The position numbers and the translations under genes are program-made. Positions 25,901 to 60,903 of a stretch of 64,000 nt of DNA are shown one piece after another. A model generated the notes under the pieces. That model did not search any database, was not told the DNA's origin, and was given only the letters and a program-made list of their open reading frames with translations. This DNA is from Styela clava. Lineage: Eukaryota. The DNA is taken from positions 12,586,001-12,650,000 of the forward strand of contig NC_135259.1 of NCBI RefSeq assembly GCF_964204865.1, in the 5' to 3' direction. Numbering within the stretch: position 1 is the first letter of the stretch; the number at the start of each line of letters is the position of its first letter.

Positions 25901-28900
25901 ATAATGTGGTCAAGTGCAAAATTAACATGGATGAGCCTATTGAGATTTTGCACACAATTATTCCTAATAAGGCTAATGAAAACAATCAGCCACCGATACG
26001 GAATCTTTTTAGTCACCTTGCCTAGCCAATGTATTTTTTCTAGGGTAGTGAGATGAGCAAGAGTTTTGCGATGCCACAATATGGCTACTTCCAACAGTCT
26101 AAATTTGTGGTGAAGTTTATCTGTATGAAAATTTGAAACGTCGGCAAAATACATTGTTTTGCTAACACAGGTTTATTTATCCTCGACATGAATATAAACC
26201 AACTATGCGCTAGCTATTCTAAATTTCAATATTTGGAACGCTATACTATACTATAGGTTCAAGCGCTCCTTACAGCGTCTGTGAAGATTCGACTGCAGGG
26301 GAAGTTATTCGATGCAATTTTTGAATGGAATAAATTGTTACGATACTATTTCATACTTCTCTGCTCAGTATTTGACAAGTATTCTCACTGAATTATATTA
26401 ACAACTAAAAAAATAGCGACAGAAAAAGGGAAGCTTTGCTCCGAGCCTAGAAATAACTGTTACATAGCCAGCAAGAGCTATTATGGAACGACCGGAAGCT
26501 ACAGATAATAATAATACTTTCACTGACACGCTACTGATTCAATTTTTTTACCGTTGTTTTGAGTAATACTTACAAGTATAATTTTATTTTAACAATGTAA
26601 AAATAGAAGTCATGACTGAGACGTTTGGAACATGGACTCAATGGACCAATTGGATGGTCTGCGATAAACATTGTGGAAAAGGAAAGCAGACTTCTACTAG
26701 AACGTGTGCTAGAGTAAGTTAATTTTCAGTTTTCTACAATTTCATTTACCGGTACAATTCAAAATCCTACAAATAAGTAAATTTGTGGTTTCGTTAACAA
26801 CAACAACGATAGACGTAACAGATATTATTCCAATTTCATCGAAGAATTTTCATGTTGCTCTCTGGAGCGTTTGAGATTTTCTTACACGCTTTTCACACTA
26901 TGTAAGACTCAACTAGACAAGGAGCTATCATGGTTTGTAAGGACTGTAACACATTTCAGGTACGGTATTTCCTACCCAATTTATTGCACTATAGGTTAGT
27001 AGTTGTGTTACATGAGATCTGAGAACAGGATGTTTCACCTCCGATAACAACATAGCTAAGTCCAACGCTTTAACCACAATGCCATTTTGTTTTCTTATAA
27101 CAATCGCTCTCAATGTCAATGATTCCATGCGGTACATATGCTGGCTAATTTACAATGCTATTTATTGTTAACCCTATTTACGTTGTTGAGTTAGCTTGTA
27201 TTTTTTCAGATTAGACTAATTTTTTTTTTATCTATTACCGGTATATATTTTAAGTATTTATGACGATGTCGATTCCGCCACCGAATCACCTTACTTCAGC
27301 ACTTGAAGTTGTCTTCACGCACTCTTATCCGAACACTGGCAAACATGTGAACACAAAAACATGTGTAATCCTGTAAAATCAAATGACTATCAGTTCCATA
27401 ATGCACTAACGCTGTGATATTAGTATTCTGTTTTCGCGCTGCATTCCTGCTGTCGTTCCCATGGTTACTCGCACATATGTGGTTGGAGTCGTTTTTTTGT
27501 TTTTCCGTGTATTGGGCGTCTCCTGGATGTTCAGGTCGTCTCGATTTCTATTTCTTCTTGAAGTTTTCATTGTATTTTAATTACTGTTAGATTTTATCAC
27601 AGTTGTCGCCGATCGATAACCAGTATTGGTTTCTCGCGACTTCTTTCACTCCGAATTACCGTTTTTCCTCCTTTTTATATTCTGTATCCATTTTGTGTAT
27701 TTCATGTATGGCGAAAAAATAAACTACTGATTACGCTTTCTTATTCAGAATGAAGAATATCTCCCAATCAAACGCTGTGCCATTCCAGATGATGTACCAA
27801 ATTTGAGCGAACATGGCAACGTAAGAGTTAGAGAATGTGAGCTTAGAGCTTGTGCAGGACAACCTGCTGGATCTGGTTCGACAAATTCAAATAACGTTGT
27901 CACAACAGCAGCACCTGGAGGAGCAGTCGGTGGTAAATATGAATTATTAGCTTTCGATGTCAGGTTTACGGTTGTTACTTACGCTTCGATGAGTGTTTGA
28001 TAACTTTTTTTTGAATTCCCTTGGAATAAACCAATTTTAGAGCATTTTTAAATCCTGATATGGATAAACATTGGGTGTCCTCAATATCTCATGAAATGTC
28101 GATAGCTAGTCATGTTTACTATTCCTGGTGCCCTGACACGGAGGTTGCCTTATTGGTCAAAGAATGAAAAACAACAACTCGTTTATATTTTTTATTCAGG
28201 GTCATCCAACCAGTGGGGCGAATGGAGTCAATGGTCAACTTGTGACGTCACGTGTGGAGAAGGACAATGGACGAGGTAACGGCATAGTTAGGAATTATAG
28301 GTCTAGGATTAATGGCAATAATGATATAACACCAACAAGCTTGAATTAGCTTGCCGAAATTTAATATTTTACTATAACTCGAATATAGTCTGTTTCTATA
28401 AATTAAATTGAATGTCCCGAGTCTTGTCGCAAGGTCTATCAACTTCCAATTGAATATTTCATAGATAAGTCGAAAAAAAAACTATTGTACATTACCATAG
28501 TAGTGAGATCAAACTCTTAAGAAAAATGCATTCAAATTACCTCTAAAATAGCAAACGCTTTTTTAGGAATATTCATTTATAGACTGCAAAAGTAAAACTT
28601 CCTTTTAAGTGATTACACTTGAAACAAGTTCATGCATCTGAAACAAACAACAGCTCAAGTACTCCTATACCCGCCATGTTTTGGTAACCGGTCGAGAGAG
28701 AGACGGGGGGGGGGGGGGGGGGGGGGCTCACGAAGTATGTGCAACAAGATGGCGCACAACCTGAACCCTAACCTGGTACAACCACTATGTTCAGGCTGTG
28801 CGCCATCTTGGTGCACATACTTCAGGAGGTCCGACGGGAGTTCACCATATGATTAAATTGTCTTGTCACCTTTCCTCTCTTACTCAAAATAATTTGCGAT

Positions 28901-31900: not shown

Positions 31901-32753
31901 TCAGCCAGTGCCAGCCAAAATTAAATTTAAATATTAGATGATAGCGTTTATAAAGAATAAAGCAGTCAAACTCACGTCCAGGGTCAGTGAAATTAAAAAA
32001 TTTGTTGCGCAAAAGACTTCAAGTTAGCTTTACCCGTCCATAGCATTATAAAATACAAATTTGGAATAGTCCCTATACCAGTGGTACCCAATCGTTTATG
32101 GCTCGTGGCCCCCTTCTGAAGGCTTTAGTACTCATGCTCCCCTGTTGATCATTCCAAAAAATACGAGTAATGCGCGCATTGCGCATATTTTACTAGAGTT
32201 AGGCCATCTGGAATTACTTTGATGAAGCCAAAGGTAACGAAATTGTCGTCCCATTTCTGTTTCTCGAGAATATTAGAAATTGAAATTTTTTTCCGGGTCT
32301 ACAATACGTTTACGACGGTTATTCTTGCAGCCTTGTGAAACTGTTATTATAAGTAAACTAAGTCTGTTCGTCATCTGCGAGTCAGATGGCCTGTCAACCC
32401 AACTTTAAATCGGAGCATAATGATATTCATAGTTTTATTTTGATAGGTGGATTTCAAATCCCAGTATGATCAAACAATGCATGCACAAGCAAGTAAAATC
32501 ACCACGTGAAATAACCTTATCAAGTAATAAAACTATATTTACTGTTACTAATCATTTTTTTTAATCTCACAGACAAATCGTGATAACTTTGAACAAGAAT
32601 GGCGTCTTCCAACCATGGATTGATTGGCAAGGAAAGAGAAAGCGTTGCATCGGAGTAGTGGCATATCTTGAGATGGACGGAGACGGGAATATCGATTTAG
32701 TTTGCGGTGACGAAAACAACTCATTCCAATACGTTTATCTAAGTAAACTTTGA
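16975..32753 (+). CDS. Astacin (M12A) metalloprotease with N-terminal signal-anchor, antistasin-like Cys module, 5 TSP1 repeats and 3 FG-GAP/VCBS-like repeats; ~19 exons, start codon unresolved
   Basis: Hydrophobic exon 16975-17073; FQGDI pro-peptide 18144-18307; HELMHTLGFYHEQSRKDRD 21082-21251; Met-turn SGMHY 22757-22889; WxxWxxWxxC..TCG exons 24628-30831; DFNRDGLDDL and EMDGDGNIDL blades; stop at 32753; splice phases are consistent. Confidence 0.88.
18804..19046. mobile_element. MITE family A, long form, 8-bp TSD CAACTTTG
   Basis: Long TIRs with CCAAGATGGCGGACA; homologous to 25474-25708 and 50127-50367. Confidence 0.85.
21482..22552. mobile_element. Three Helentron/HINE-like non-autonomous repeats (21482-~21800 minus; ~22072-22382 and 22381-22552 plus)
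   Basis: Shared ACTTATCGAT sub-terminal motif, (GACA)n microsatellite, terminal palindrome TACTTACCGAT..ATCGATAAGTA; the family assignment is inference. Confidence 0.6.
23131..23478. mobile_element. Tc1/mariner (pogo/Tigger-like) MITE
   Basis: TA|CAAGGAGTCCTCG...CGAGGACTCCCTG|TA. Confidence 0.8.
25474..25708. mobile_element. MITE family A, long form, 8-bp TSD GTATTTCC
   Basis: TIRs GGTACT..CCAAGATGGCGG; TSD present on both sides. Confidence 0.85.
28724..28832. mobile_element. MITE family A, short form, abutting a 22-nt poly-G tract
   Basis: CAAGATGGCGCACAACCTGAAC inverted arms. Confidence 0.75.
29059..29454. mobile_element. Tc1/mariner-type MITE
   Basis: TA|CCATGTTTTCCGAAAATAAG...TTATTTTCGGCGGAACACGG|TA imperfect TIRs. 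Confidence 0.65.
29876..30072. mobile_element. Tc1/mariner MITE
   Basis: TA|CAGGGTGTCCAAAAAGTT...AACTTTTTGGACACCCTG|TA. Confidence 0.85.
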
Positions 32754-34427
32754 AATTTAACTATATTCATGCCATTTTTTACAGACTGCAAACAAAAATA
32801 TCAAAAAATGGTAACATTTTATGACAGATTTAGTTTTTCTATGTACCAGAATCCGAATAGTTTCCTATTGATATTAGTAAATAATAAAAATATTATAGCT
32901 TTGGTTATTATTTGCTTTTTTTGGGGGGGGGGGGTCATGTTATATTGTGAGAGTTTGGGTATAGTATAAATGTTCAGATGTTTTTGTTTGTTTGTTTGTT
33001 TTTCATTCGAACAACCTGATATTTTAAAATAATTCTTATTTCTTTCTATTTCGACAAAATTGAGTGTGATCGCTTGTAGCGGGCTTGGTATTTTTTTTTT
33101 TGTTAATTAATCTACTGCAGTTCAGTATATAGTTTCAATTATTAGAAAACGTAGTAATTTATTATATATCTGTAACCCATGATTTCTACTGTTTGTAAAA
33201 TTACAATTGGTTTTTTCTCGGTAATGATATAATTGCATCGTTTCAGGGAAACTGAACTCAATTCCTATGGTAATAAACGGTTATGTTCTCACTCAAGCCC
33301 CTAGTTGTGTTATTTAGATCGATATTTATAGAGTTTCGACAATTTTGTTCTTTGTCATATATATATTACATACTGTTCTATGTGAAAATATTGGTAGTGT
33401 TCAACATTTACGAGCACTTTATGCTAGTTTGTTTTTCGGACTTCCAAACAAAAGCAGGAGCATATCAATGAAACAATTAATTAACTGTTCAAGAAAGCGA
33501 ATGACGCAATTGGCCATATTACAGGCTAAGTTTTCAACTGACCCTAATGTCATGTTTTACTCGAACCATATTCTCTTTGCAAAAAGGGGGATTAAATCAA
33601 AACCAAAAATGATGTGACAATACGGTAAAACTGTCTATATTTCAAGGATATCTTAGTGTAAAAATAAAAAATAAATGATTGCATACTCTAATCAAAACAT
33701 TAGTTAAGCTGTTATTGTGCTTGGCTGAATATTAGAGTTTTAATCGCTTCATAAATTTCTGTAATTTTGCATAATTGCTGACGCTTTTCCGGGACAAGAT
33801 TTTTTGAAACAAGTGTTGTGTTCCTATCTCCGATTTTGCAAAATTGTTTTGCTAGTAATTTGCTTCCGAGCCAAAAGTGACATGCAAAAAGTTTGTTTAA
33901 ACATACTAAGCTATTTAATTGACTGGATTATTCCAGTTAGAGGACCACTACCACACTTCAAGTAAATATTTTTCCTGTCAGCTTCGGATTTTAATTTTTG
34001 GTTTCTATTTACAAGTGAGCCTGATTCAAACTCTGATGCAAATATATGATATTTTAACTATTGCTCATAAAAACCTATCTACCTAAAACATAGAACTTTT
34101 GTTAACGACAGTGTTTTTAGTATTTTTGTACATTGTTAAAATAAAACACGTTACATTTGTTAATATTCATTGTCATTTTTTCCATGCACAGTTGTTTGGG
34201 ATAAGGGTACAGATTCGGCATGCTATAAACGCAACGATGTTTTTAATTAAATAATTTAACACGAACAGCATTGGCAGTACAAACTAGACAGACGTCTGTG
34301 CGACATTGACAACTACGATGCGGTGTTTATAAAGCAATTTTTACGATATCAATTTCACAACTGAAACCCGGAATGACAATACTACCTAAACACCCTGGAA
34401 ATCTTCTATTCGTTGTTTGTTCCGAGT

Positions 34428-36658
34428 GCGATTCAAAACTTACAGGAAACCACCAACACATGCACGGCCCGTTCCTATGTAAGTTTCATAACGCCTTCTC
34501 AGAATTACAGCTCACCCAAATGGGTTCATTTTCCACTGTTGCCAGATTAGAGACCTAATTGTTCGCTCATAGTTAGTTTTAATGTGAGTAATTGTTCACA
34601 CCACATTATGAAATTTGAGGGAAACAGCGTTACTCACACAGTCACACGGCCTGTTTCACACAAGTTTCAACACGTAACTGGGAATGATCAATGATATTAT
34701 GTGATATCGCTGATATTACAAATGTATATGATGCGATGTCTCCATTGCATGTCGTTTGGTGTTTTAACACTTCTGCACACATTAGGACATAGCGAAATAG
34801 GCTGATGCTATTAAACAGCCATTTCCGTTATGTTCCGACGCGAACGAGTTTGAATAAACTTGCTATTTGGTTCTAAATTAGCCCGTACTTAGTATTTCAA
34901 ATTGATTCTCTGGATTTGATGATAGACTTGATTACACTGCGGATCTACCATGAGCGGGTCTGAATTTATGAAGCCCGTTCCGTGAAAGTTCCACCGTGTA
35001 TCACAAGATTCCTCTACAAAGGAAGGATGTTGTTTCCAATACACGTTCAAACTTGTCTGAAACAGCCAGTGGACACAAGCGGCCTGTTTCACGATAAGTT
35101 TCAGTGCGTATCTGGATAATATAAAATCACACAGTACTTTCAAAGTTGCAGGTACTATATAAACGGTAGTAAATATTATTCTGTTCCGTAATGAGAAGTT
35201 AAGACCCTATCAGTTGATGTCGAAATTGTACGATGGGGGACATAGGAGAAAGTACCGAATAAATTTCAGCCCTTTCCGTTATGTTCCGTATCGGGCATTC
35301 GAGTATAAAACATTATCATTTAATGTTGAAATTGTATTTAAAACACAGAAGAGAAAGTGCCAAACATAGTACAGCCTTTTATGTTGTGTTTCGTACCGGT
35401 AGCGTGAGCATCATAAAACTTCGACACTCGAACTATCGCGAATGAGCAAAAACCTTCCACCCGATTTCCAAATTGTACGCTGTAGGACATAGAGGAAAGT
35501 GCCGAGCACGATACAGCCCTTTCATTTATGTTCCGTTGCGTACATTCGAGTGTATCAGCCATTTTGGCGTATGTTAGATTGACTTAGGAATCACATGAAT
35601 TCATTCGAGGATAATCAAGTTTGCACACTGTGAGACACATCGAAAAAGACTATTGTAGCACAGCCCTTTCCGTTATGTTCCGAAGTGGATCAAATGCAAT
35701 TGTCATCGTCTTCAATTGTATAACTACGAAATGAAACCTGCTTGAAGATAATCAAAATGACACACTGTAGGACACATCGGAAAAGACTATTATACCACAG
35801 CCCTTTCCGTTATGTTCCGTGGTGTATGTTTGAATATACCGAATATCATTGTCAATTTATTCGATTACATGAAGTTTATTTACATCGAACATGAAACCTA
35901 CTTGAAGATAAATAAAATGGCACACTGTGAGACATATCAGAAAAGACCGAATAATTGAGTACAGCCCTTTCCGTTATGTTCCGTAGTGGACTTTCGAAAA
36001 TGCCTAATGTCATTCTTATATTCTTAAATTGCATTATGTTTATCTATCTTGAAAATGAAAACTGAAGATAACTAAAACGGCACACTATGAGACATAGCAG
36101 AAAAGACTGAATACTTGATCAGTCCTTTCCGTTATGTTCCGTAGTGGACTTTCGAAAATACCAAAGTGTCATTCTTACTTTGTTTAAATGCATAAATTAA
36201 GTTTATTTTCCTCAAAATGACAACTGTTTGAAGATAATTAAAATGGCACACAATGAGACATATCAGAAAAGACCGAATATATACTTGATCAGTCCTTTCC
36301 GTTATGTTCCGTTGCGAACCATCGAATCTGGCAACTTTCTGGTTTGTAGCATCATCCCATCAGCGTACCGGTGCCCGGTAGTGCATCGCGCCCTAAAGAA
36401 CTGCAGAAGATAGTCAATGTCGCTCACTTTGAGACATATCTGAAAAGACTTGATAAAAACAGTCCTTTCCGATATGTTCCGTTATGAGCCATTGAAAATT
36501 TGTGAATGTACTTACAAATATTTAACATGTAACTTTCCGTTAAGTTACACGGAAAGCAGCCAATTTGAAAACATTGTTGCGGTATTGAGTTCGGTGGGGA
36601 TCATTCTGGAATGGATCTCGAGTTTTACAAACCCGTTCCAAGAAAGTTCCAAATCGAA
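34428..36658 (-). ncRNA. Predicted polycistronic miRNA cluster L (14 pre-miRNA-like hairpins)
   Basis: 60-75 nt imperfect hairpins. Conserved arms (plus coordinates): family 1 at 34816, 35267, 35514, 35661, 35798, 35962, 36120, 36290, 36460; family 2 at 34465, 34647, 34971, 35080, 36629. A-C oppositions on plus become G:U pairs on minus. Confidence 0.8.
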
Positions 36659-36719
36659 AACAATGAATGTCCCTAAAAGCAGGTCTGTTGCTTGAAGGAG
36701 AGTGAGCAGTTTGCTATCG

Positions 36720-36900
36720 ATTTCGGACTGGATTCTGATTTTAAAGCAAGATCGTTCGCACTTCTTCCGGCATGTAATCCTTTGTCTGGAACATCGGAAC
36801 TACCTGATTGTTTGTTATCTACCACACCTTGAGCCTATAGGTCGATATTTCGAATATTAATTAGCGCTTACGCAATATGCTAATAGGCGGGAGCCGACGC
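36720..36900 (-). promoter_or_regulatory. Conserved leader or promoter-proximal element upstream of cluster L
   Basis: Reverse complement aligns with 40130-40310, including identical ATCAGGTAGTTCCGATGTTCCAGAC, CTCAAGGTG and GATAACAAA. Confidence 0.6.
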
Positions 36901-38007
36901 ATCGCATATCCCGCAGACTTATACGTTCAATTAAGGATTAGCTGCGGGTGGCGTAATAGCAAACAAAAGAATAATAAGTTGAATGAGAGATAGTTCTCTA
37001 ACACAATTGTAAGAGACAAAGCGAACCCACTTAATTTATTTCGTTCAATCAATTATTTAGGTAGTTCATATTTTATGTTCAATACAAACTATATAGGAAA
37101 TTCATAAATCATCGGTCAATGATTCGTCTCCAAATATCTCAATCATTGTCGTTGAAGCTGAGCCAATCACAAATCCAACAAATTTTGACAGTAATACCCA
37201 ATTGCCGTTTCTATGTAGATATATGCTATACCTCGTTTAGGTAGGCTGTCTAATAATATTAATTCAAAAATCCAATAGAAGTAAAGAGAACCTAAAATAC
37301 TGCGAATTAGATAAGATATCCTGATAATGCGCTTTTATCAGATAATCTTATTATCAAAATCTTTATTATTAAAAATATTGTCTAGCGTTATAATGTAAGC
37401 TTCTGTTTACCGAGGGTTTTTACTAATTAGATTTGACGAACTCGACTCTTAGGACTTTGATCTTGTTTTTCAACTTCATAGGGTCGAAAGTTGTTTTTGT
37501 TCAATCAAATGACGATCTCGTTTCTCAACGTTACATTAAGTTTAGAAGAACAGTTTCCAGATACACACAAATTCTTTGAGGTATCTTCAGACCTGAGCCA
37601 TATTTTACCTTTCGAATCTGCTTAGTACTTACTCATGGATAGAGGATTCTATATTATTGGTTTGGATTTAACAGCAACAAAAATGGATTCAATTTGTATT
37701 GAGAGATATTTAGAACAATACTAGATAGATATTTAGCACCACACATATACACCAATCTTTCTAACTCAACTTCTTTCTGCATACGCAATTTAGATACATG
37801 ACATATCAATTAATATAAACTTCTTTTGTCGTATTATGAAAATAAAATGCGAGTAATACGAAGTATAATCATTCTATGTAACATTAGTAACTGAATTGAC
37901 ATATTCTTATGTGATTGGATTGTCATCAAATTCTTTAGACTACACTTGCGCCCAACGGATACTTATTAAAATCGAGTTTCTTATTGGAAACGAAGTGACA
38001 CTATAGA

Positions 38008-38075
38008 TCAGGGTGGTCCAATCCCAGGCCCACGGGCCACATGTGGCCTGCCGCTTCATTATCTGTGGCCCGCTT
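38008..38075 (+). mobile_element. hAT-like MITE end fragment
   Basis: CAGGGTGGTCCAA terminus followed by GGCCC(A/G)C sub-terminal repeats. Confidence 0.5.
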
Positions 38076-38689
38076 CGCATTTGCGCGAAGGTAAACAAAA
38101 ATAGGTATTTGGTGTTGTTTCGTCATAAAAATAACCAGGAAAATATTTTGACATATTGTTACATCACTAATGTCACTGAATTGACTAGTGTTATAGAGAA
38201 GTTGAATAATGTGTTTGGCTAGTCAACAGTATTACAAAAAATGCTGCCTATATGTCAGAAAATTTAGAAGTTACTCTCATGTATCTTAAATTTGGTAAAA
38301 TTCGGTAATCAATCAATCTGCAGGTAATTGTGAGTTATTTTGTAAACATGAATTTAAAAAGAAAGCTGACCAATTCAAACAGATTTTTGACTTGATATGG
38401 GAGGGAAAATATCACAATGCTCGCTTATGTCTGCAGGTTGTGTCGGTGACAATCTGAGACAGCACTTGAAGCACTCACGTTATGAAGAGTTTAAAATCTT
38501 ACACTAAATGTAGATATAGTAGTATTTTTGGTAGTTTTTGCATGTTTTAGCTTAATAAAAGACAAATAATGATCAATTGGATGGATCAATGTTTGGACAA
38601 TAAAAGTGTTTGTTTTGTATTGCATTATTTTTATTGATGTTGTGTCGTATTTAATTTTCATTGGTTAAAGGCTGTTGTTTCTGTAAGAC

Positions 38690-38892
38690 GGTTCCATTAC
38701 ATTTGAACCCACGTACACTTGAACCCATGACAATTGCACCTGTATGCTATTGCACCTATGGATTTTTTTTTGTTTCACGGATAGTTAAACCCATACTAAC
38801 CCTAACCCATGGGTTTTAGCACCCGCATATAGATTGAACCCGTGGATATACACATGGGTTCAAATGTACGTGGGTTCAAATGTACGGTAACC
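38690..38892. mobile_element. MITE family B, 9-bp TSD CTGTAAGAC
   Basis: Near-identical to 16668-16854. Confidence 0.85.
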
Positions 38893-40129
38893 CTGTAAGA
38901 CTATTACCCTTATTTAATTTAAAAATTTCTCTGGGCTCTATGAAATGCGATGACATCATCAAAATTAAAAATTGCGCACCTTGTGGCGGTTTCGCGATCG
39001 TTGCGATCTGGTGGTCAGTCGAAGTCGGGAAGACTACGATACCGGTGCTGTTAAAGATTTGATACCCGTACTACTTCGCTTAGACGTCCGTGTCTATATA
39101 TTTGAATAATGCTCTCTGATTCATTTAGATACTAAAAACATCTGAGTGCATACTCAGCTTCATTAGACTTTGTCTCTATTTATATATATTGTCTTGTCTT
39201 ATAAACTCCCCTGTATAAACAGTTTTGTATACTCCACCCTTACCACTTTCACCACACCAAACGACCCATTGCCCCACCTTGAACAACTGTCTAAATAAGG
39301 GACCATATTATACATATTTAATCTAATGTTCTTTGTTTTATATTTGTCAAAAAGGGTGCATGCCGCACATTTGTGTTTTAGGCCAGTACGGTCTTGTGCA
39401 GGCATCCCGTCTTAAATAATAATAATCGTTCATTTATTTTTTTATCACTATTACGAGACGAATAAACATACATACATACATTCTAATTATAACAATTTGA
39501 AATTGAAATAATTGTTAGTTCACCTAAAACGGCAACAAAAGTCAACTTCTATGTCGCCTTACTGTATTTTTGACGGATTTTTTTATATAATGTATTTCTC
39601 AAACATGGTGTAGAAGGAAATTTTCAGTATTGCTTTTTTAATTTTCATATCATAAAAATTCTTGGACTTGCCAAATATTTATTACCTTGCTTTGGTCGAA
39701 AAGTGCTCTCATTTCAAGTCCAGGTATTTTAGTTTACTTGTGCGTGTGATTTTGATGCTATGTGTGCATCTGGACATCTGAAATGTTTCTTTTTATTTAC
39801 GATGTGAATTATTTGAAGTGAACAATTATTAGTGCCAACATCTTATAAAACACACGCTTGAGAAGACTTCATCAGAGATGTATTTATCTTCGAAGCATTA
39901 GCATTTGGGACAACAATTTTGAATTTTATCACAAATAGTGATGAAATGAAGGCGCGTATTGGGATATTGGAATTAACATTATGCAAGTATGCCTCAGTTC
40001 GTACATTTCTCAGAAGCTAAATTAAAGTTGAAAAGAATAAAATAGCCGCGAAGCTATTGTTTACTCTTACGCCACTTTCTGATATAATCATCTGTTGGAC
40101 ATATCAGGTGACAAGAACTTGAATCCCCG

Positions 40130-40310
40130 GTGCGAACCCGCTTGTTATCTTGATTAAAGCGCGACAATTAATGATAAGAGTTTATACCGCCGAGTCTCAA
40201 GGTGCGAGCGATAACAAATGATCAGGTAGTTCCGATGTTCCAGACGGAAGATTGCATAGACGAAAAAGTGCGAGCCATTTGCTTTATAATCCAGCTCGAA
40301 TTCGAAAATG
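40130..40310 (+). promoter_or_regulatory. Conserved leader or promoter-proximal element upstream of cluster R
   Basis: Inverted homolog of 36720-36900. Confidence 0.6.
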
Positions 40311-40444
40311 ACATCAATCACTTGGGTTCATCCCAAGCAGAAGACCTCTTCCATCTATTGGCATCAGCAAGTATCGGTCTATCACAATGAATTCACCTTA
40401 TGTAAGTAAGTATTAGAACTGTGCATTTTCAAACTCATCTTATA

Positions 40445-41933
40445 ATTCGCTTTGGAACTTTTCTGGAACGGGTTTTGTTTTTCGAACAAATATTCCGAAA
40501 CCCATTTCTAAAAGATCCCGACTGAATATTTGACTATCATCAAACGAATATAAATTTAGACATCGGCTCGTAATTTGGGTATTCGCATCGGAACATAGCG
40601 GAAAGAGCTGTCTTCATATCATTAGCTCTTTACGGTGTGTCCTACTGCGAGTACAACTTACACAACACTAGTTATACTGTTTACTATAAGTCAATGTTAT
40701 GAAGAAACGCAGACAAGAAAATTGATACCTCGCTTCGGAACATATCGGAAAGGGCTGCTATAGTATTCAGCTCGTTCTGAAATGTCCTAACGTGAGTTGA
40801 TCTCGGATATCTTCACTATATCACCTCAACTATGATTACCTCACTATATTTGGAGGTTTACTACGGAACATAACGAAAACGGCTGGTTATTGTATAGGTG
40901 TTCCGCCTGGTCCGCTATGTCCTAATGTACGCTCATCTTGCTTTCACCCGTTTTCCGATTCCTACTTTCCGATCTTTACGTTGAAACTTATTTAGAAACA
41001 GGCCGTGTCTTAGATGGCAGTTTCAAATAAGATTCAAAGCAAATTGAGGACTTTCACGCAACGAAAAGAGAAGAATTATATTTGAATTGTCCATATTTGG
41101 TTTCGTATTGGAACTTACTTGGAACGGATTTGAGGGACATTATGTAAGACCTTTCCGGTAAGATCCACAACGAAGGAAATACTGTCTCCTACTACAAGTC
41201 ATATGTATTTTGTTAATACTGTTTTAAAGTAAGACAACGATTGTTTCGGGTTTTCACAAAGGAACATGGCGGAAAGTGCTGTTTGAAATAAAACTCAGCT
41301 AATTCCATCATGTCCAATGTGATTACACCGTCTATCAGAGATGCAAGAAGAAAATATTGGACAGTGGCCTTCGGAACATAACGGAAAAGGCTGTTCCCAG
41401 TTTCTGCCTTCTGCGATATGTCTCAATGACCGCGGTACTTCAATTTCTACAATCCAAAAATTTGTTTATAATTTTCAAGATACAGGTAAACTAAACATAA
41501 CTTTTACTGGAGTGTGGTCTTCGGAACATAACGGAAATGGCTGTTTTCATCTTCGGTCTTTTCCGGTATGTCTCAACGGCCACGAAACTTCAATTTCTAC
41601 AATTTTTTATGGGTATAATTTAGGAAATCAAAAATCACATTTAAATAATGAAGAGTGGCTTGTGGAACACAGCTATGCTTCAATTTCTACAATCTGCCTA
41701 AGTATGGAACAAAATCCAATACGTGCTGGGATGTGGTCTTCGGAACATAACGGAAAGGGCTGTTATCATATTCTACCTTTTCCGATATGTCTCAATAACC
41801 GCAATGCTTAAATTTCTTCTACAGTGTTGCATTGAAACATCTGTGAATATTTTCTTAAGACGCAATGAAACTTATATTGGAACGGGCCGTGTATTTAATA
41901 AAATGGCGGTTGCTTATAAGTTTTGTAGAGTCT
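40445..41933 (+). ncRNA. Predicted polycistronic miRNA cluster R (11 hairpins plus one truncated unit at ~41655)
   Basis: 5' arms: family 1 (T/A)CGGAACATAACGGAAAGGGCTG-like at 40588, 40735, 40863, 41259, 41371, 41521, 41740; family 2 TG(G/A)AACTT-type at 40452, 40981, 41108, 41865; each is followed by a complementary 3' arm and basal stem. Confidence 0.8.
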
Positions 41934-42728
41934 TAAGACCTTACTCAAATAATGACATAGATTTAATAGAAAACTTGAAAATATTTCATTTTCAAGGCTT
42001 CAAACTGTGTCGTCGTCTGCTCTCTCGCTTTGCTGTGAAGTAGCTCAAATATCGACTTTCTATTCTTGAATTCGGGCATTTTTATGCAATCCAATAGTCG
42101 ACCTCAGTGACAAAGTAATGCAAAAATTAGACTTCAAAAAACAAGCTGCCAATTATCATAAAACGATTCAGCTAGAATATAGTGGGGAGATTTGTCTATT
42201 TCTCACGACCAAATTGCGAAGGATTGAAATTTTGCACGATTAACTACACGCCAGCTTCAATAATAATCCCTCGTTAGCACCGTTATATTGATCATCAGTG
42301 TGCGAATGTACTACAGAGTGTACACAACAGGTTTGTGTGGATGAGGTTTTTAAAAAATCAGCCATTTCCTGTCATTATCAGATGTTCGATAGATTTAGTA
42401 AACTATAGAAGTATTTACAGTAAAAAAAGCACAGATTTCCATAGAATTACAGTTGAATATCCACACAAACCAGACAACAACATCAAGTTCATTAATGAAT
42501 ATTCAGCACGTTGATATTGATCATCGCGAATGTAACACATAATACAAGTTAATTGTATTGAATATATGCCGGTTGTTTTTGCACTTACATCATATGTACC
42601 ACCGTGTACATGTTAAACTTTTTATAAATTACTTATCTTAACAGTTTGTTCTATTGAATTTATTTACACCCACCGTCATCTGTCGTACGCGGTTAGCGTG
42701 ATCTGTCAATAATGTCTAGACACTAGAC

Positions 42729-43617
42729 CAGGGATGTTCCACCTGCGGCCCGCGGGTCGAATGCGGCCCACAGGAAGAATTCGTGCGGCCCACTTGAAGT
42801 TTTTATATAAATACAGACATATAAACATATTTAACGTGAGAAAGTTTCCTGGTATGATATCAAATCTTACTAGAATTTAGGCTATAATTTCACGCGACTC
42901 CGCCATAAAAAAGCGTTGTTAAGCGCCTTAGAACATGATTTTACATTGGGCCACTCAAGCTTGCAACATCTGTGGCGACAATGAACTAAGTCATCGAGGT
43001 TGAAGTCACATACCGGTACTGTGTTTTATCGATGGTAGTTGACGAACCACAAAACCAATTCCACCGGTATGTGTGGAACAAAATAGATGAAGCTTGAGGA
43101 CGAAAATCGGAAATATCAAAAAGATTGAGAAGAGTTGTAGGACAACGATGTATGCCTAATATGCTGTTTCGAGTTTGAAGTCGTATAATTTGAAAATTAT
43201 GAAGTCGAAGCATAGGAGTAAGCTGACGATCGAAAATTTGACAAGCCAGTTAGTTACATTGTGCTATACCAAAACTACCCGTTGGTATGAAACAGTTAAG
43301 AATTGACAATCAAAAGCAAGTTTCGAATTAGTTAAAGAAAAAATGCTGACTCTATTTTATTTCCTGTGATTTTTCACGCCAATGTATGTGCATTTTGCAT
43401 AAAAGCTGAATTGAATTTCATGGTCCATGGTGCGGGCATCTTGTGTTCAGAAACCCGCAAAATTGTTGTGCAATCCAGGCGTTTGAGTTAGTGACGCTCA
43501 AATTCTAACGTAAATCGGAATTAGGTTGGTATCTGAGTTCGGTAAAAACCTTTGCGGCCCGCAATGATTTTCCCCATGTGAAAGTGGCCGCCACACTAAA
43601 AAGGTTGGACATGCCTG
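42729..43617 (+). mobile_element. Non-autonomous hAT (Charlie-like) deletion derivative
   Basis: CAGGGATGTTC...GGACATGCCTG TIRs, 8-bp TSD C(A/T)CTAGAC, remnant transposase C-terminus MKSKHRSKLTIENLTSQL..QKQVSN*. Confidence 0.85.
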
Positions 43618-44914
43618 CTCTAGACAAAAAAAAAGTGATGCCAAATTTTTAAAGCCTCAATTATATGAAGTTCAATACTGTCTTTTACAGTTGAATGTCT
43701 TTCAAATTATTTAATTGCTCACATAGAACTCATTGACAAAGTAACGCAATAATTTAACTTCGAAAAGAGAGCTGCCAAACATCCTAAAACGACCACGTAG
43801 AATATATTAGGGAGATTTGTCTATTTGTCACGACCAAATTGCGGAAGATTGCATTCTGAACGATCTAACTACACGTCAGTCCCAATCGTTGGCACATTGA
43901 TATTGATCATCAGTGTGAGAATATACCGCAGAGTGTATACAACAGGTTTGTGGATTGAATCAAATACAAGAAATTTTTTTTTTTTAAATCGGCCATTGGA
44001 TGTCATTTTCAGATGTCCAAAAGATGGAGCGGAATAGAGTAAATTATAAAAGTATTTACAGTGAAAAAGCCCATATTTCAATAGAATTTTAAAAATAACA
44101 ATACAATTTACAAATAGAAAACTATACAAATCAGACAGTTGTCAACCTCTTAAGGTGAATGCTATTACTTCATCTGAAATAATCCGAAAACATATTTATA
44201 GAGGCAAACATATCTCGCAACAATGATAATCACACGTTAGTCATTCGTTTGATTGCTGAAAACTACATCACGTCATACACGCTAAATGAAGAAATGATAA
44301 ATAGATGTAACACAACCGAAGTGACGCCATGATTATAAAACTAACTCAGACTTTTTGATAAAAAAAAAGACAGACTAAAATAGAACGCAATAAAAAAAAT
44401 TCTAGAGACAATGAAAACGCTTAAAGCTAGAAAAAGAATTGTATTTTGTGTTTGACACTTTTGTCATAAACAAGAACAATGAAAATAACAAACGGCAGCA
44501 ACTACGTTAGTTAATCAGATTATTTATAATCTAACTGAGCCTCGAATGCGAGATCTCATGATTAATGTTGTCGGTAACTTAGGCAGCTTGTCATCCTTCA
44601 TACTTCAAACATTAATACAATATAACGTTTCAATACCATAGATTAAAAACACTTTTTGGGCAATTTTGTAAAATGGTCAACTTCAGATATAGATATTCAA
44701 TCAGTATTTTGGAAATAATATGTGAAATATGCAAAAAAAAATTCATCCGTTTTTTTAATTCGATAAAAATGAAGTTTTTAACTAACGAATTTACACTTTT
44801 TTGTTGAAAAATGGTCGCCGTATTTCATTTTGTTGTCAATTTATAGCGAAAATGCACATATTTCAATATAACATCCAAATGTACCAAACAATTTGCGAAA
44901 AGAAAACACTCAAT

Positions 44915-45793
44915 TCAAACAGTTTTCAAGCCATGTAATGTTTCATCTTTCTGAGTTTTACGGAATACGATTGTAGGATAAACATATGTCAAGATGAAAG
45001 ATAATTCCTCATCTGCAGTATTTTCAACATCTAGAAGTTTCTTGACTTTTTTTGCGAGAACGTCAAGCGGATCATTGCATGAAGTATAGTTACCAATGTG
45101 ATATTCGCCCATACTTGCAAAAAAATCTTTGTATTCTGACATAGTGTATATTGCATTGCTTTTGATTCCACTGATCCACTCTTTTGTATTATTTTTCAGT
45201 TGTTTAAAAATTTCGACATAGAAATCGAACGCCACTGTTGTACGGTGGTGTGCGTTCACATTGCTCAGATAATCACGATGTACTTCTATCAGAGAAATAC
45301 TTTTAATGTTTCCTTCATTACTCTGAGTCACTTTAGTTGCTTTTATAGGAACATAAGTGTATATTGCGCAGCATCCACCAGGCTTTAAAACTCTTTCACA
45401 TTCTCTTTCGAATATTTCCATATCAAGCCAATGCGCGGAACAAGCACACGTTACCAAGTCGATGGTACTATCTTCCACGGGTAACAGATTATCATCAACC
45501 AGTTGAAAGCATACATTTTCGCTTGTGTTGATTTTGTTTGCTAAAAGTATTTGAGCTTCGCTGATATCGATACCTAGAATTGATTCAAAATGATGTGAGT
45601 ACATATGAGTGTTCTGGCCGCTACCGCATCCAACGTCAATCATTTTTCTTGGTTTACAATTAGGTTTGATTCCGTCTTTCAAATACTTCAAAACAGATTC
45701 CAATATTTCTGTAGGATATGTTGGTCGACTTACCATGTACAAATTTGCTAATTTGCTACCTTCATAATATCGATAAATTTTAGCTGGCAACAT
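44915..45793 (-). CDS. Class I SAM-dependent methyltransferase (Methyltransf_11/25-like), intronless
   Basis: 292-aa ORF: RPTYP, IDVGCGSGQ motif I, GIDISEAQI, DLVT..SAHW, ERVLKPGG. Confidence 0.9.
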   Translation of the reverse strand: MLPAKIYRYYEGSKLANLYMVSRPTYPTEILESVLKYLKDGIKPNCKPRKMIDVGCGSGQNTHMYSHHFESILGIDISEAQILLANKINTSENVCFQLVDDNLLPVEDSTIDLVTCACSAHWLDMEIFERECERVLKPGGCCAIYTYVPIKATKVTQSNEGNIKSISLIEVHRDYLSNVNAHHRTTVAFDFYVEIFKQLKNNTKEWISGIKSNAIYTMSEYKDFFASMGEYHIGNYTSCNDPLDVLAKKVKKLLDVENTADEELSFILTYVYPTIVFRKTQKDETLHGLKTV

Positions 45794-46212
45794 ATCCTAT
45801 CGCGTTAACAGCTTCATACCAAACTCGTACTTCATGAATTGAGTCCGTACTTTTTCCTATTTTCGACATCAGTTACTCAAATTGATTTCATTGGCACGCA
45901 AGTTGCAGTTCTCGTGCTCACTAACGAGTCACAGAAGTCACGGTTAACTTTTTTTGAACAACATCAATTCCATTAATGAATATTCAGCACGTTGATACTG
46001 ATCATCGCGAATGTAACACATAATACAAGTTAATTGTATTGAATATATGCCGGTTGTTTTTGCACTTACACCATATGTACCACCGTGTACATGTTAAACT
46101 TTTTATAAATTACTTATCTTAACAGTTTGTTCTATTGAATTTATTCACAGCCACCATCAGCCGTCGTACTCGGTTGGCCGTGATCTGTCATTAATGTCTC
46201 TAGACTCTAGAC

Positions 46213-49171: not shown

Positions 49172-52100
49172 TCAGTAACATTTCAATGGTCCTAAAGTGT
49201 AGTATCCAAAATACGATGTCGAGGTATAATAGAATCCAAAGTGCATTCCAGTAACTGGAAGTACATTTTTATCATAAAGATATCCAGCATCGACTCGATC
49301 TGGAGACGAACCGTAGTAATCACAGTTGCACTTGTGACTATAAGTAGTGCCAGGCTGGCAAGATCCTGAAGTGAATGATATAGTTATGACAGATTACGTT
49401 TTGAGTTCCGTCAGAGTTGGCGACAAGTGCAGAAATAGATTCGCTTCAATATGACCGATATCTTACACTGACCAAGACGATTTAAAAAAACAACAATTTG
49501 CACAAGTCAAAGCCAGCTGGGCTAAAATGTCGTTCGCGAAATAGTCATAGAGGTAACTTTTTTATTTCTTCTAGATGTCGACAAGAAACTTAATATTACT
49601 GAAGTGAATAGTTTAAAGTTCAAACAAAATAACAATCAAATCTATTTGGGGTTCAAATCACAGTATACTTTCACAAATTGAATTTGTCAAATTTAATACG
49701 TCTTGCTACTAATTTCGGACAATAAAAAAGACTGAAAGTGACGCCACATAGTGGATTAGAATTGCAGCAACAGAGACAAAAGTTGTTTAAATTGCAACAA
49801 TCATGTGAATAATGAAGAATATGTAATAAATGGTGAGATCGTCAGGTAATCAGGTTAGTCATTGAATAAATGATGGGGAATAGAATTGAACAGGGGTTGT
49901 GAATAGTGATGCCCACCTGTTTCTCCACAAGCACAATATCCATCATGATTAGGATCAGCTCCTCCCCAGTACGTCATATTGTTTCCTTGTCTCGAAATCC
50001 ACCAAGTGTATCCGCCGTACAGCATTCCCGTTCTACGACATTGCCACTAAACAGAGTCGTAAATTAAAACAAGATAGCGAAACTCAAATATATGGATACG
50101 AAGAGCCAATCAATACCTAACCGCAGGGTACTCCCGTACAATGTAAACCAAGATGGCAGACACCGGAACGTAATATGTGTACCAGGTTAGGGTTAGGCCA
50201 TAATTTTAAGTACAAATACCACGGGAGCCACTGGTCTAGTCCCCAAACTCGTAATAGAATTTAAAAAAAAGGAAAATTGTAATAAAATTATGGACTAACC
50301 CTAACCTGGTACACCACATACTATGTTCCGGTGTCCACCATCTTGGTTCACATACTACAGGAGCGCAAACCGCAGTGCCGGTAACCCACGCGAATCATAC
50401 GGAAATATGTCGCAAAAGCTTACAGAACCGAGTTCGCAAAATTAAAACGGAGGACAGCGTTGACGTAGGACGTACCGCATGACAGAATTAAAACGGTGTT
50501 CCCCCGAATAAAAAAGTGAAATTTTGGATGAAATATCTGATCTCATAGAATTCATACAAAATTTAGGACCCATGAAAAGTAATAATAGACTTCTGCCGAT
50601 AACAACAATCTCTAACCACTAAAGATTTCAAGCTAATTGGTCTAGTAGTTGAAGTAAAAGGTGATTTATTTCACGACAACAACAAGAATACCAACAACAA
50701 CAACATAATAACGAAACGATCCTCTCGCTTCATTACAGTTTTTAAGTAGTTTGTAATGTGTGCACAAACGAGTATTACAATAGAAATGATGTCACTATGT
50801 AACAAAAAATCTTATTTTTAATACAGCTAATACAAAGCAAAATTCTTTACCAAGAAAGACGAAATTTCTCCTCTGAGGGAGTTTCACACTAATTGGGAAA
50901 TATGCAGTTATCTGAGCATTCAGAGTCGTAACAATTCATACTAGCAGAGGTAACGCCTTGCTTAGTAGTGAGCATCGGAGTTAACAAAAAGATGGCGGAT
51001 TGGTCTGACGCAACACCAGCACTTATCGTAAAAATAGAACATTTTTGGGTGAAATAACGTGCCCAGTAGAACTGGGGGTAAGTATGAAATAAGATATTAA
51101 TAGCCTTATAGCGACTTCCATCTTTGAATATTGAGAATTATACATTAACCACAATAACAAGTCCCTCAGAAACAACTTGGCAAAACGTTCCATTTCGTAG
51201 CAAACTTCGTGTTCAATAACATTTTAATTAATGACCATGAGCTTTTGACGATCACTATAAAAAAAACGTGGGTTGTTTGTTCAGAACGCGTGGGACGTGT
51301 TGTAGCTACTCGATATTTTGGATTGTTTAAACTTTCCCAGACCATAGTATTCGCGAAAAGCCTTTGCTTGAAGTAAAAAGTAAAAGCTGACCTCAATGTA
51401 TTGCTCGCAGTAATTGGATCCGTTAATAAGAGCACTAATTTGTTCCATAGTTACATTGTAGTTGACTTTAATATCGTTGTCAGTATTGTAAGTAAGTTGG
51501 GAACTCTTACTTTCTTTATCATGATGTACAACTGTTATCCCTGTCCCAAAATAAGATTATGATGAAGGTTGGATTCAACAAGAGTGCAATTACTTGTATC
51601 TTATATTATTAACTTCTGAAGTTGAAAAAGAATGAAACAAGATATATACATAAATAGTTTAGGCTCATCTGGGCTGATTCCCGATCTGTACCGACCTGTT
51701 CCAGGATAAGAATCCATATCGCAATAAACTTCAAACGGTTGAACACCAGCACCAGGAGCTATTGTATAGTTTCCTGATGGGTTTCCGTCTTTCTTGAGAC
51801 CAGCACAATCCTTGGTGCTCACTGAAATTTTAAAAAAACGGTCGAAATATATGTTAGAATTAATTGTATCAGATGAACTTCACCGTAGCAAAGAGAAATA
51901 CCTTTGCTCTCGCACACTAACGTTTCTACTGTTTACTTACCTTTTACACGTGTGAATAGCTTGAAAATCACACTTATTTCGTTGTAACTCACGGGAAGAT
52001 ATAAGTCAACTAATTAAATTTGAATTTAGAGATAAAATGATAAAAGTAAAAATGTTTATGTACATTAAAAAATAATTCTTCTTGCAATTGCATTGAAATG

Positions 52101-59400: not shown

Positions 59401-60903
59401 GGTATTTTTTTCTCTGTAGGCGCGTTAGTCATGTGGTTAAGGCGTTGAGAGATTAAAACTCGTAATGGTTCAAGTTTTATTTCCACTACCAAACTCTAAT
59501 AAAAGTGGGTAGGAAATCCAGAATCGAAAAAAGAACTGTCATTGCAAAATAAAGTAACTATTTTCCTATCGGTGGTTGCTTTTATTAACCCTTGTTTGGA
59601 GCATACATTTTTTAGTTAAATATTGTTTAATGTCTGTTCTCTTTGGGCAAAATTTCTCAACATATTTCTTCGACCCCAGCCGCGTACCACATAACTTTGA
59701 CCATCAGTTTTAGATTACATATGCAAAAAGAAATGTGTTAAAGGGTTAACCGATTCGAGAGCATACAAACATAATACAAATAAACGAATCCGCCCTAAAA
59801 CCCTTGGAAAGGTAAACTTAACGTATCTGCACACATAACTAATCAAGTTAAAATTCAACTTATTCATGATAAAAATAACATTTCAAGAACTAGTCCCCCA
59901 TGCATGGAAATATTTTGCTTGCAAACGACGGGAATTAGTTTTTTGCCTACTGCTTGATTGTAAGAAAAGTGGAAAACCCTATTCCACGCAAAACAAAACA
60001 AAACAAAAAGATCTGGGGCAAAATTGTCATTACTAAATTCATGAATATGTAATTTGCTGTGATATCGAATGGTTTTTCGTATTTCATGGAAAATATCCAG
60101 CGTACCGCCTCGGAGGCTTTGCGTTACATCAGTGTCTCGCGCATCGTTGATTGGATACCTTTGGCTTAGAGAATTAGACAACTTCGATTTCTAGCCTTGT
60201 AACATATTTTAATGAGAATTCAACACTATCAGCACATAACTATTATTAAATCTAACCTTTTCCAGGAATAACCGAGATCGACCACGATGAGCAAAGCGGA
60301 AGTCTTAATTACTATTCTTCCAATAAAAATATACAAGTTAATTACAACGTGTCAATGGATCAGATTGTTGCTCTAATGAGTGTTTCACAGCAATGTGAAC
60401 AATATATTGAAGTTAGTAAAAGCTAAATAGAATATTTTTTTTTTAGATATTGATCAATAATATTAGTGATATATATTACAGTCATTTTGATTCATTTCAG
60501 TGGCGTTGTTCCAGAACAAGGATGTTTTACAGTGACAAAAACTGGTGGCTGTCACGTGATGGAGACAAAATGACCTACTGGGGAGGAGCTGCCCCCGGGC
60601 ATGATGGATACTGTGGGTGCGGAGAAACTGGTAAGAGCGTAACCTAGATTTGAATAAAATAAAAATATAGGTCATAAAAATGTTTATACCACAGGAACGT
60701 GTCTGCCTGGAACCAGTTATCTACACAAATGCAATTGCGACTATATTAGCTCCAGTGATGGCACATACCGTGTTGATGGAGGTTATCTGTACGACAAAAG
60801 CACATTGCCAGTAACTGGCATGGCATTTGCATTGGATTACTATTACTCTTCTTCCATTTATTCTCGGGGAGACTACAAACTTGGAAAACTTAGGTGCTAT
60901 TGA
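56448..60903 (+). CDS. Paralogous secreted coiled-coil protein with two Caspr-type fibrinogen-like modules, 12 exons
   Basis: Signal MMKKPLLLISLALMINCCS; same exon count and phases as 49172-54983; SCDEFK..GYYNIDPDG, WWVSRDG, CNCD, LPVT, LGKLRCY*; AATAAA downstream. Confidence 0.88.
59419..59491 (+). mobile_element. Degenerate tRNA-derived SINE head
   Basis: A-box-like TAGTCATGTGGTTAAGGCG and B-box-like GGTTCAAG; no intact cloverleaf. Confidence 0.35.

What the first reader, a model, noticed from the sequence alone, without database searches (positions are those of the whole stretch)
36720..40310. Homologous ~180 bp non-hairpin leader in front of both clusters
36720-36900 (minus) aligns with 40130-40310 (plus): AATTAAT, CTCAAGGTG, GATAACAAA, an identical 25-mer ATCAGGTAGTTCCGATGTTCCAGAC, then AAGTGCGA..TTGCTTTA. 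Spacers between hairpins are not alignable between the two clusters, so this block appears to be under selection. Inference: shared core promoter, 5' exon or splice donor (CAG|GTAGT) of the pri-miRNAs.
Basis: partly seen in the sequence, partly recalled or inferred. Interest (0 to 1): 0.7.

Follow-up and report, generated by a model that had tools for sequence, protein, structure and literature searches.

The report
MicroRNA clusters carry their own target
Two back-to-back clusters of predicted microRNA hairpins, likely from a sea squirt, each start with the same conserved leader, whose one unchanged 25-base stretch is complementary to the clusters' own main microRNA and so likely lets that microRNA act back on its own precursor, and in two RNA assemblies the end of one leader is joined to unrelated genes, likely by trans-splicing.

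Summary
The homology is real: 77% identity over a 105-column core, an identical 25-mer, exactly two copies in the 377-Mb genome, and spacers that align no better than shuffles. The 25 hairpins match the tunicate miR-4000/4006/4018 family. Shuffled arms gave an 8mer plus at least 5 supplementary pairs in 10 of 300,000 trials. One RNA-type contig reads through the + copy, so CAG|GTAGT is not an obligatory donor. Two contigs leave at GTAAGT donors (40401, 40405) and join canonical acceptors just before ATGs of genes on two other contigs, which looks like trans-splicing. Best reading: a duplicated promoter-proximal/5'-exon module with a self-target site for feedback (0.45). Main rival: a transcription-factor module only (0.27). 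Missing: TSS, small-RNA reads, Argonaute data, an outgroup, and any RNA over the - leader.

The parts
40056..40320 (+). Homologous leader block of the + cluster (promoter-proximal region and 5' exon)
   Evidence: alignments; RNA-type contigs X1 39971-40286 and X2 39963-40408
36700..36967 (-). Homologous leader block of the - cluster
   Evidence: no RNA-type contig over it in 4 of 4 runs laid
40221..40245 (+). Invariant 25-mer, predicted binding site for the clusters' GGAACAU-seed miRNAs (8mer at 40235-40242)
36784..36808 (-). Invariant 25-mer, second copy (8mer at 36787-36794)
40058..40064 (+). Fox-like word TGTTTAC; the minus copy (36959-36965) reads TGTTTGC, a change that keeps the recalled consensus
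   Evidence: consensus recalled, binding untested
40283..40290 (+). TATA-like word (minus copy 36738-36745), with a CA dinucleotide about 31 nt on in both copies; possible start near 40316 / 36712
   Evidence: and direct reading; inference only
40402..40411 (+). Two tandem GTAAGT splice donors (exon ends 40401 and 40405), joined in RNA-type contigs to acceptors on contigs C3 and C14
40453..41930 (+). Cluster of 11 predicted miR-4000/4006/4018-family hairpins
   Evidence: family by Ciona savignyi and Halocynthia supplement tables
34420..36651 (-). Cluster of 14 predicted family hairpins plus one decayed copy near 35393
33093..34311 (-). RNA-covered stretch downstream of the - cluster, likely the 3' part of its host transcript (strand inferred; AATAAA at 33163)
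   Evidence: contigs of depth 24-68 in 4 of 4 runs
41687..43841 (+). RNA-covered stretch downstream of the + cluster with a GT..AG joint near 42330/42960, likely the 3' part of its host transcript; overlaps repeats
   Evidence: joint in 4 of 4 runs, short side only 28-30 letters; no ORF of 90 aa or more in 42.1-43.8 kb

Best explanation
The block is the duplicated 5' region of two head-to-head clusters of predicted miR-4000/4006/4018-family hairpins, and its invariant 25-mer is a sense-strand complement of the clusters' own main microRNA that likely serves as a feedback site on the primary transcript. Shown: the homology, the two-copy status, the pairing pattern (miRNA nt 2-8 plus an A opposite nt 1, a 2-nt bulge at nt 9-10, nt 11-15, nt 20-22), and RNA-type contigs across the + copy whose strand is fixed by a canonical splice junction. 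Inferred: one leader-plus-cluster unit was duplicated and inverted long ago; the flanking short words are transcription-factor sites that give both clusters the same expression; Argonaute loaded with the GGAACAU-seed miRNA binds the leader 130-210 nt upstream of the first hairpin and most likely damps output of the whole cluster by destabilising the primary or host RNA or slowing its cropping. The direction of the effect is a guess. Also inferred: Drosha cropping of the first + hairpin leaves a capped 5' piece whose donor has no downstream acceptor, and that donor is occasionally trans-spliced to the unpaired acceptors of other genes.
For: 16 of 25 arms carry seed GGAACAU; of these 14 of 16 pair at nt 11-15 and 16 of 16 at nt 20-22 in exact register. 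[quoted passage not shown] The invariant run starts one letter before the base that would pair nt 23 and ends 3 letters after the 8mer, so it covers one miRNA footprint. Shuffled arms: 8mer in 3.8e-4, 8mer plus at least 5 supplementary pairs in 10 of 300,000; 0 of 112,550 background 25-mers for any of three arms tested. The 13-nt core occurs 18 times in the genome, 2 of them in these leaders. 0 of 16 of the hairpins' own 3' arms hold the perfect 7mer, so the site is not a plain star-arm copy. It lies on the cluster's sense strand in both copies. X2's contig spans 39963-40401 with no listed difference inside 40013-40401.
Against: The test was chosen after seeing the match. Duplex energy (-18.3) is ordinary among the 18 genomic copies of the 13-mer (-16.7 to -22.8). 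The site is predicted to be partly buried (8mer unpaired 0.28 and 0.48; opening cost 9.0 and 6.8 kcal/mol). Letters that would not pair (the GTAG loop, the 3' GAC) are invariant too. A TATA-like word downstream of the site in both copies could put the main start past it. The 3' arm of one Halocynthia family hairpin resembles the site (miR-5021), and the minus block's downstream part weakly resembles a 5' arm (p 0.03-0.04), so a hairpin-relic origin is possible. Deleting the comparable lin-4 element in C. elegans changed nothing at the endogenous locus (PMC5764303 abstract). The two copies share one origin and no second species was available. The runs are contigs whose RNA status is a guess, from one study.
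Confidence: 0.45

Rival explanations
1. The whole block is a DNA-level promoter or enhancer module. The 25-mer is a pair of factor sites (a GTTCC direct repeat next to CAGGTA), possibly recruited from an old hairpin arm, and the complementarity is a leftover of ancestry with no function.
For: Many short conserved words at fixed spacing; Fox-like word with a consensus-keeping change; TATA-like word and CA about 31 nt apart in both copies (motifs recalled); 3 kb upstream of the C. savignyi cluster drives mesenchyme expression (PMC8965075 passages); GGCTCAAGG also occurs about 1 kb upstream of the C17 cluster; unpaired letters are invariant.
Against: It does not explain an exact 8mer with in-register supplementary and terminal pairs. 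No recalled factor consensus covers the core. Contigs carry the + block in spliced sense RNA.
Confidence: 0.27
2. The leader RNA is a decoy or a trigger of target-directed miRNA decay that selectively trims the GGAACAU-seed members, and so sets their ratio to the GGAACUU and GAAACUU members made from the same transcript.
For: Seed plus asymmetric bulge plus pairing to the last miRNA letters; a perfectly conserved island of about 20-25 nt in a non-coding RNA, as described for Nrep/libra and Cyrano (PMC6175985 passages).
Against: 3' pairing is 5 + 3 bp around a 4x4 loop. The review says seed plus small supplementary pairing does not trigger decay, though tolerance varies. Leader contigs have low depth (about 3-4).
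Confidence: 0.13
3. The site works at the promoter, through DNA or upstream-initiated nascent RNA, as proposed for the lin-4 complementary element (RNA activation).
For: Position upstream of a possible TATA/start; low-depth RNA across it from further upstream; precedent described in PMC4013156 (whole text).
Against: The precedent failed at the endogenous locus (PMC5764303 abstract).
Confidence: 0.07
4. The conserved CAG|GTAGT is a functional 5' splice site that recruits U1 to help crop the cluster.
For: 7 of 9 match to the recalled donor consensus, present in both copies, and the minus copy has no other donor between it and the first hairpin.
Against: Contigs in X1 and X2 read through it and no loose end or joint was listed there; it accounts for 9 of the 25 letters.
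Confidence: 0.05
5. The 25-mer is itself a mature small RNA from the opposite strand (a 22-mer starting with U and seed GGAACAU).
For: Length and perfect conservation match a mature arm; two 22-nt arms are also identical between the clusters.
Against: No precursor hairpin on either strand. No such sequence seen among the known miRNAs of C. savignyi Table S1, and no hit for the core word in the Halocynthia table.
Confidence: 0.03

Closest known systems
Tunicate miR-4000/4001/4006/4018/1502 family clusters (C. savignyi miR-4018a/4000f/4018b; Halocynthia scaffold S4 and S290 clusters)
   Same: Same 5' arms and seeds; clustered; expressed in mesenchyme in C. savignyi (PMC5831862, PMC8965075 passages).
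   Different: Here 25 hairpins in two head-to-head arrays with a duplicated leader. No leader element or self-site appeared in the passages read.
C. elegans let-7 autoregulation through a site in pri-let-7 (Zisoulis 2012, known here only through PMC4013156)
   Same: A miRNA-complementary site in the miRNA's own primary transcript.
   Different: That site is at the 3' end and promotes biogenesis. This one is in the 5' leader of a 10-15-hairpin polycistron, kept in two paralogous leaders, and untested.
lin-4 complementary element (Turner 2014 via PMC4013156; PMC5764303)
   Same: Conserved self-complementary element just upstream of the miRNA, near the promoter.
   Different: Single miRNA; the endogenous deletion had no effect. 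Here RNA-type contigs carry the site in sense.
TDMD triggers (Nrep/libra-miR-29b, Cyrano-miR-7; PMC6175985)
   Same: Short perfectly conserved island in a non-coding RNA with seed, bulge and 3' pairing.
   Different: 3' pairing is interrupted and shorter; the site is in cis in the miRNA's own host.
Spliced-leader trans-splicing in Ciona (PMC11155486)
   Same: Joining of a 5' donor exon to an acceptor in the 5' region of an unrelated mRNA on another chromosome.
   Different: The donor is a single-copy exon of at least 439 nt in one contig, not the 16-nt exon of a 46-nt SL RNA; seen in only two contigs.

Membership tests
miR-4000/4006/4018 family (the hairpins) | 5' arm with seed GGAACAU, GGAACUU or GAAACUU and a GGAA..GGC 3' half | tested here: met
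   16, 4 and 5 of 25 arms; matches csa-miR-4018a, -4006, -4001, -4000e/f
miR-4000/4006/4018 family (the hairpins) | Pre-miRNA-like stem-loop | tested here: met
   15-19 of 22 arm letters paired, -18 to -35 kcal/mol; 41260 hairpin -31.7; 40864 folds less cleanly
miR-4000/4006/4018 family (the hairpins) | Mature and star small-RNA reads with precise ends in this species | not testable with these tools
   only assembled contigs were offered
Canonical miRNA target site | 8mer: match to nt 2-8 plus A opposite nt 1 | tested here: met
   40235-40242 and 36787-36794
Canonical miRNA target site | 3'-supplementary pairing | tested here: met
   nt 11-15 in 14 of 16 arms; this is shifted 5' of the usual nt 13-16 (recalled)
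Canonical miRNA target site | Present in a transcript in sense | tested here: inconclusive
   + copy inside contigs of X1 and X2, strand from the splice junction; RNA status is a guess; - copy uncovered
Canonical miRNA target site | Accessible, in the 3' UTR of an mRNA | tested here: not met
   lies in a 5' non-coding leader; predicted opening cost 6.8-9.0 kcal/mol
Canonical miRNA target site | Argonaute binding and seed-dependent effect | not testable with these tools
   needs CLIP or mutagenesis
TDMD trigger | Extensive, nearly continuous pairing to the miRNA 3' end beyond a central bulge | tested here: inconclusive
   5 bp + 4x4 loop with at most one or two extra pairs + 3 bp against the criteria in PMC6175985
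Pol II core promoter | TSS within the block; TATA/Inr at fixed spacing; open chromatin | tested here: inconclusive
   TATA-like word and CA present; contigs reach back to 39618; no CAGE or ATAC
5' splice donor at CAG|GTAGT | Junctions at this position | tested here: not met
   contigs read through; junctions are at 40401 and 40405; contigs drop rare forms
Pre-miRNA (the block itself) | Long stable hairpin on either strand | tested here: not met
   z -0.1 to 1.3
SL RNA gene | Short leader exon on a short RNA, donated to many mRNAs | tested here: not met
   donated part 39 and 439 nt; 40320-40440 single-copy; works like a leader donor in 2 contigs only
Dispersed repeat | Many copies unlinked to hairpin arrays | tested here: not met
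   2 copies

The most novel reading that the evidence does not exclude
A tunicate microRNA polycistron encodes, in its own 5' exon, a conserved site for its dominant microRNA, and the Drosha-cropped 5' exon behaves as an accidental spliced leader: its orphan donor is trans-spliced onto unrelated mRNAs (an Arf-family, SAR1-like gene and a C3 gene), which would carry that exon, and in long forms the miRNA site, onto them in the cells that express the cluster.
Probability: 0.2. Interest if true: 0.85.

Novelty: new variant of a known kind. Interest (0 to 1): 0.66.

Why it matters
MicroRNA feedback on its own primary transcript rests on few cases, and one of them (lin-4) failed its endogenous test. 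Here a site of full miRNA length is held unchanged in two old paralogous leaders while the spacers are unalignable, in a family tied to tunic-cell and mesenchyme fate in ascidians that take electroporated reporters well. That makes the question directly testable with a seed mutation and a compensatory change. The junctions to other genes, if confirmed in raw reads, would show that any capped RNA with an orphan donor can compete with the spliced leader in a chordate. That bears on how SL trans-splicing picks its donor and how it could arise.

Tried and rejected
Rfam at gathering threshold: 0 matches. Block as a hairpin on either strand: rejected. More copies of the leader: none, and none within 20 kb of the C17 family cluster or 16 kb of the C1 hit. 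The C17 cluster has no GGAACAU arm, so it is not a test of the self-site idea. The 13 dispersed near-identical hits: 4 were scanned (L023, L024, L026, L038), none gave a family hairpin, nor did the C1 hit L022. Metagenome scans: 0 hits for the 22-nt arm; 78 single hits for a degenerate pattern, none with more than one hairpin-like match, 71 with none, mostly GC-rich, judged chance. No outgroup locus was obtained. No RNA holder on record; runs were 'RNA?' contigs. No contig over the minus leader in X1-X4 and nothing laid for X9: neither shows silence. A cis joint from 40401/40405 to the candidate acceptor at 41996 was not among the 15 of 49 joints shown. The loose ends are not in the window. 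The C19 one-mismatch hit was dropped because its upstream letters and continuation differ from the loose end. Hairpin-relic alignment: + block not above background, - block marginal. In one search three UGGAACUU arms were offset by one base; their starts are taken. The 25-mer slice was shifted by one base but holds the same site. Earlier findings of the scan: nothing by place, sequence or words. Supplements of bioRxiv preprints were closed, and the original Ciona miRTRAP paper was not read; either could bear on novelty.

Full report
Observation. The two stretches align as described. The identical 25-mer lies at 40221-40245 on + and 36784-36808 on -. The block has two copies in the 377-Mb genome. 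The upstream regions with the first hairpin score 220 against a maximum of 108.5 in 200 shuffles, while hairpin-masked spacers score 108 against a shuffled mean of 96 and maximum of 121. The 105-column core is 77% identical, and a 25-nt run within it has permutation p 0.014. Homology is visible from about 40056/36967 to 40320/36700. Neither strand folds better than shuffles and Rfam finds nothing in the window.

The clusters. A folding scan found 14 hairpins on - (36651 to 34488) and 10 on +; a duplex scan added one on + at 41260 and a decayed one near 35393. Of 25 arms, 16 have seed GGAACAU, 5 GAAACUU and 4 GGAACUU. All 13 genomic hits of the main-arm pattern are in this window. [quoted passage not shown] The Halocynthia supplement (rows) shows a comparable cluster on scaffold S4. 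The organism is therefore inferred to be an ascidian; the C17 cluster holds a 20-mer identical to Halocynthia miR-1502. In C. savignyi the cluster is expressed in mesenchyme and 3 kb upstream drives that pattern (PMC5831862 and PMC8965075, passages).

The 25-mer is the complement of the main arm. Read on the clusters' sense strand it holds ATGTTCCA, the 8mer for seed GGAACAU, directly preceded by TTCCG, which pairs nt 11-15 with nt 9-10 bulged, and four letters further by CAG, which pairs nt 20-22. This holds for 14 of 16 and 16 of 16 arms respectively, and none of the 16 hairpins' own 3' arms has the perfect 7mer. Duplex energy is -18 to -20 kcal/mol for most arms and -12 to -13 for two variants. 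Shuffled arms reach an 8mer plus at least 5 supplementary pairs in 10 of 300,000 trials, and 0 of 112,550 background 25-mers do so for any of three arms. The test was chosen after the match was seen, so these figures overstate the case, though not by the factor needed to make it chance. The 13-nt core occurs 18 times in the genome (control 3); the other 16 have similar or better energies and some lie in repeats, so the site stands out by place and invariance, not by strength. Against it: predicted local stems bury part of the site, unpaired letters are invariant too, and anything complementary to a 5' arm resembles a 3' arm, as the Halocynthia miR-5021 row shows. A relic origin is thus possible, but a relic without function would not stay identical while the spacers became unalignable (inference).

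Transcription. No run on record as RNA holds the stretch; four 'RNA?' contig sets from one study were laid on 32000-45000, and X2, X3, X9 and the DNA-like X5 on 39900-41990. Low-depth contigs cover 39618-40286 (X1) and 39953-40142 (X3), and a 1,217-nt contig of X2 covers 39963-40408. Both X1 and X2 read through CAG|GTAGT. The hairpin arrays are almost uncovered, and contigs of depth 24-68 lie just downstream of the - array in 4 of 4 runs, as expected if cropping leaves a polyadenylated 3' piece (inference). The minus leader has no contig in these four runs, which shows nothing either way. Contigs cannot show a start. A TATA-like word at 40283/36745 with CA about 31 nt on, and a Fox-like word at 40058/36965, are kept in both copies (consensus motifs recalled), so a main start near 40316/36712, downstream of the site, is not excluded.

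Junctions to other genes. The X2 and X3 contigs leave the window at tandem GTAAGT donors, while X5 continues through them in a 2,438-nt contig. Their loose letters are not in the window but match single places on C3 and C14. On C14 the loose end begins exactly after TTATTTAG, 24 nt before the ATG of an Arf-family, SAR1-like frame; the window side ends at 40405. On C3 it begins 7 letters after TTCTACAG; those 7 letters match 40402-40408 at 5 of 7, so the junction is inferred at 40401, 12 nt before the ATG of a frame with no Pfam match. Neither gene has a donor scoring 8 of 9 in the 1.5 kb upstream, and 40320-40440 is single-copy, so cis-splicing from another copy is unlikely. Two donors and two acceptors, all canonical, fit spliceosomal trans-splicing better than template switching or a DNA rearrangement (inference). 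About half of Ciona genes take a spliced leader at such first acceptors (PMC11155486, passages). Drosha cropping at 40453 would leave 47-51 nt of intron behind these donors. The evidence is two contigs from one study, with no read counts; an assembler would favour such a long rare 5' branch over a short leader, so the events may be rare noise. The minus leader has no matching donor.

Mechanism. Most likely the unit of leader plus cluster was duplicated and inverted, and two kinds of constraint keep the leader: factor sites for shared expression, and a site by which the dominant miRNA binds its own primary or host RNA and damps the cluster. The pairing, position and copy number are shown; binding, effect and direction are inferred (0.45). 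Rivals: factor module only (0.27), decay trigger or decoy for the GGAACAU members (0.13), promoter-level RNA activation (0.07), U1 site (0.05), antisense small RNA (0.03).

Known comparisons and novelty. let-7 acting on pri-let-7 and the lin-4 complementary element are the nearest cases (PMC4013156, whole text; the primary papers were not read), and the lin-4 element proved dispensable at the endogenous locus (PMC5764303, abstract). TDMD triggers need more continuous 3' pairing (PMC6175985, passages). pri-let-7 is itself trans-spliced (PMC4509930, search listing only). Ten searches listed no paper, by title or abstract start, on a self-site in a tunicate cluster leader or on a pri-miRNA exon acting as trans-splice donor; only 3 of the 17 papers naming miR-4018, -4006 or -1502 concern ascidians. 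The library lacks most subscription papers. Verdict: real feature, new variant of a known kind, interest 0.66.

Noticed in passing
window 40401/40405 to G000:C3:2840362 (-) and G000:C14:13072023 (+), approximate; L018, L019: Apparent trans-splicing of the + cluster's 5' exon to canonical acceptors 12 and 24 nt before the ATGs of an acidic low-complexity protein gene and an Arf-family, SAR1-like gene.
   Followed up: partly
G000:C17:17296850-17300201 (-), L142/L143: Third family cluster: at least 6 hairpins including one with a 20-mer identical to Halocynthia miR-1502; no GGAACAU arm seen, no homologous leader; GGCTCAAGG and a CAAG|GTAAGA donor about 0.8-1 kb upstream.
   Followed up: partly
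window 35330-35393 (-) and 41660-41715 (+): A decayed family hairpin and a truncated one inside the arrays; neighbouring units 35607-36489 and 41355-41822 are recent tandem duplicates.
   Followed up: partly
window 35600-36460 (-), 41440-41820 (+): A CTTC (CNNC-like, motif recalled) word recurs about 10-20 nt behind many 3' arms and explains the conserved TTGAAGATAA seen on the + strand between hairpins.
   Followed up: no
window 44915-45796 (-): Intron-free 293-aa frame with a class I methyltransferase domain (Pfam Methyltransf_11, E 7.6e-19), inside a region tandemly duplicated at about 3.1-3.5 kb spacing (42.0-48.1 kb).
   Followed up: partly
G000 loci L023-L031, L038-L040, L043: A 20-mer resembling the miR-4000 arm occurs near-identically at 13 dispersed places on 9 contigs; 4 checked form no family hairpin, probably part of a repeat.
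   Followed up: partly
window 49915-53195 and 58271-60632: Several 70-82% inverted-repeat arms suggest an inverted gene duplication; a fibrinogen-like coding fragment is suspected from the ORF text at 51281-51879 (recalled resemblance, not tested).
   Followed up: no
window 13524-13652, 18797-19052, 25474-25702, 28727-28834, 50126-50369, 54522-54649, 21495-22365, 38009-38900, 42715-43625: Several miniature inverted-repeat elements; the last carries a splice acceptor used by the RNA downstream of the + cluster.
   Followed up: no
G000 loci L044-L061: The 13-nt seed-plus-supplementary word occurs 18 times against 3 for its reversed control; some of the 16 other places might be real targets, three share a repeat.
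   Followed up: partly
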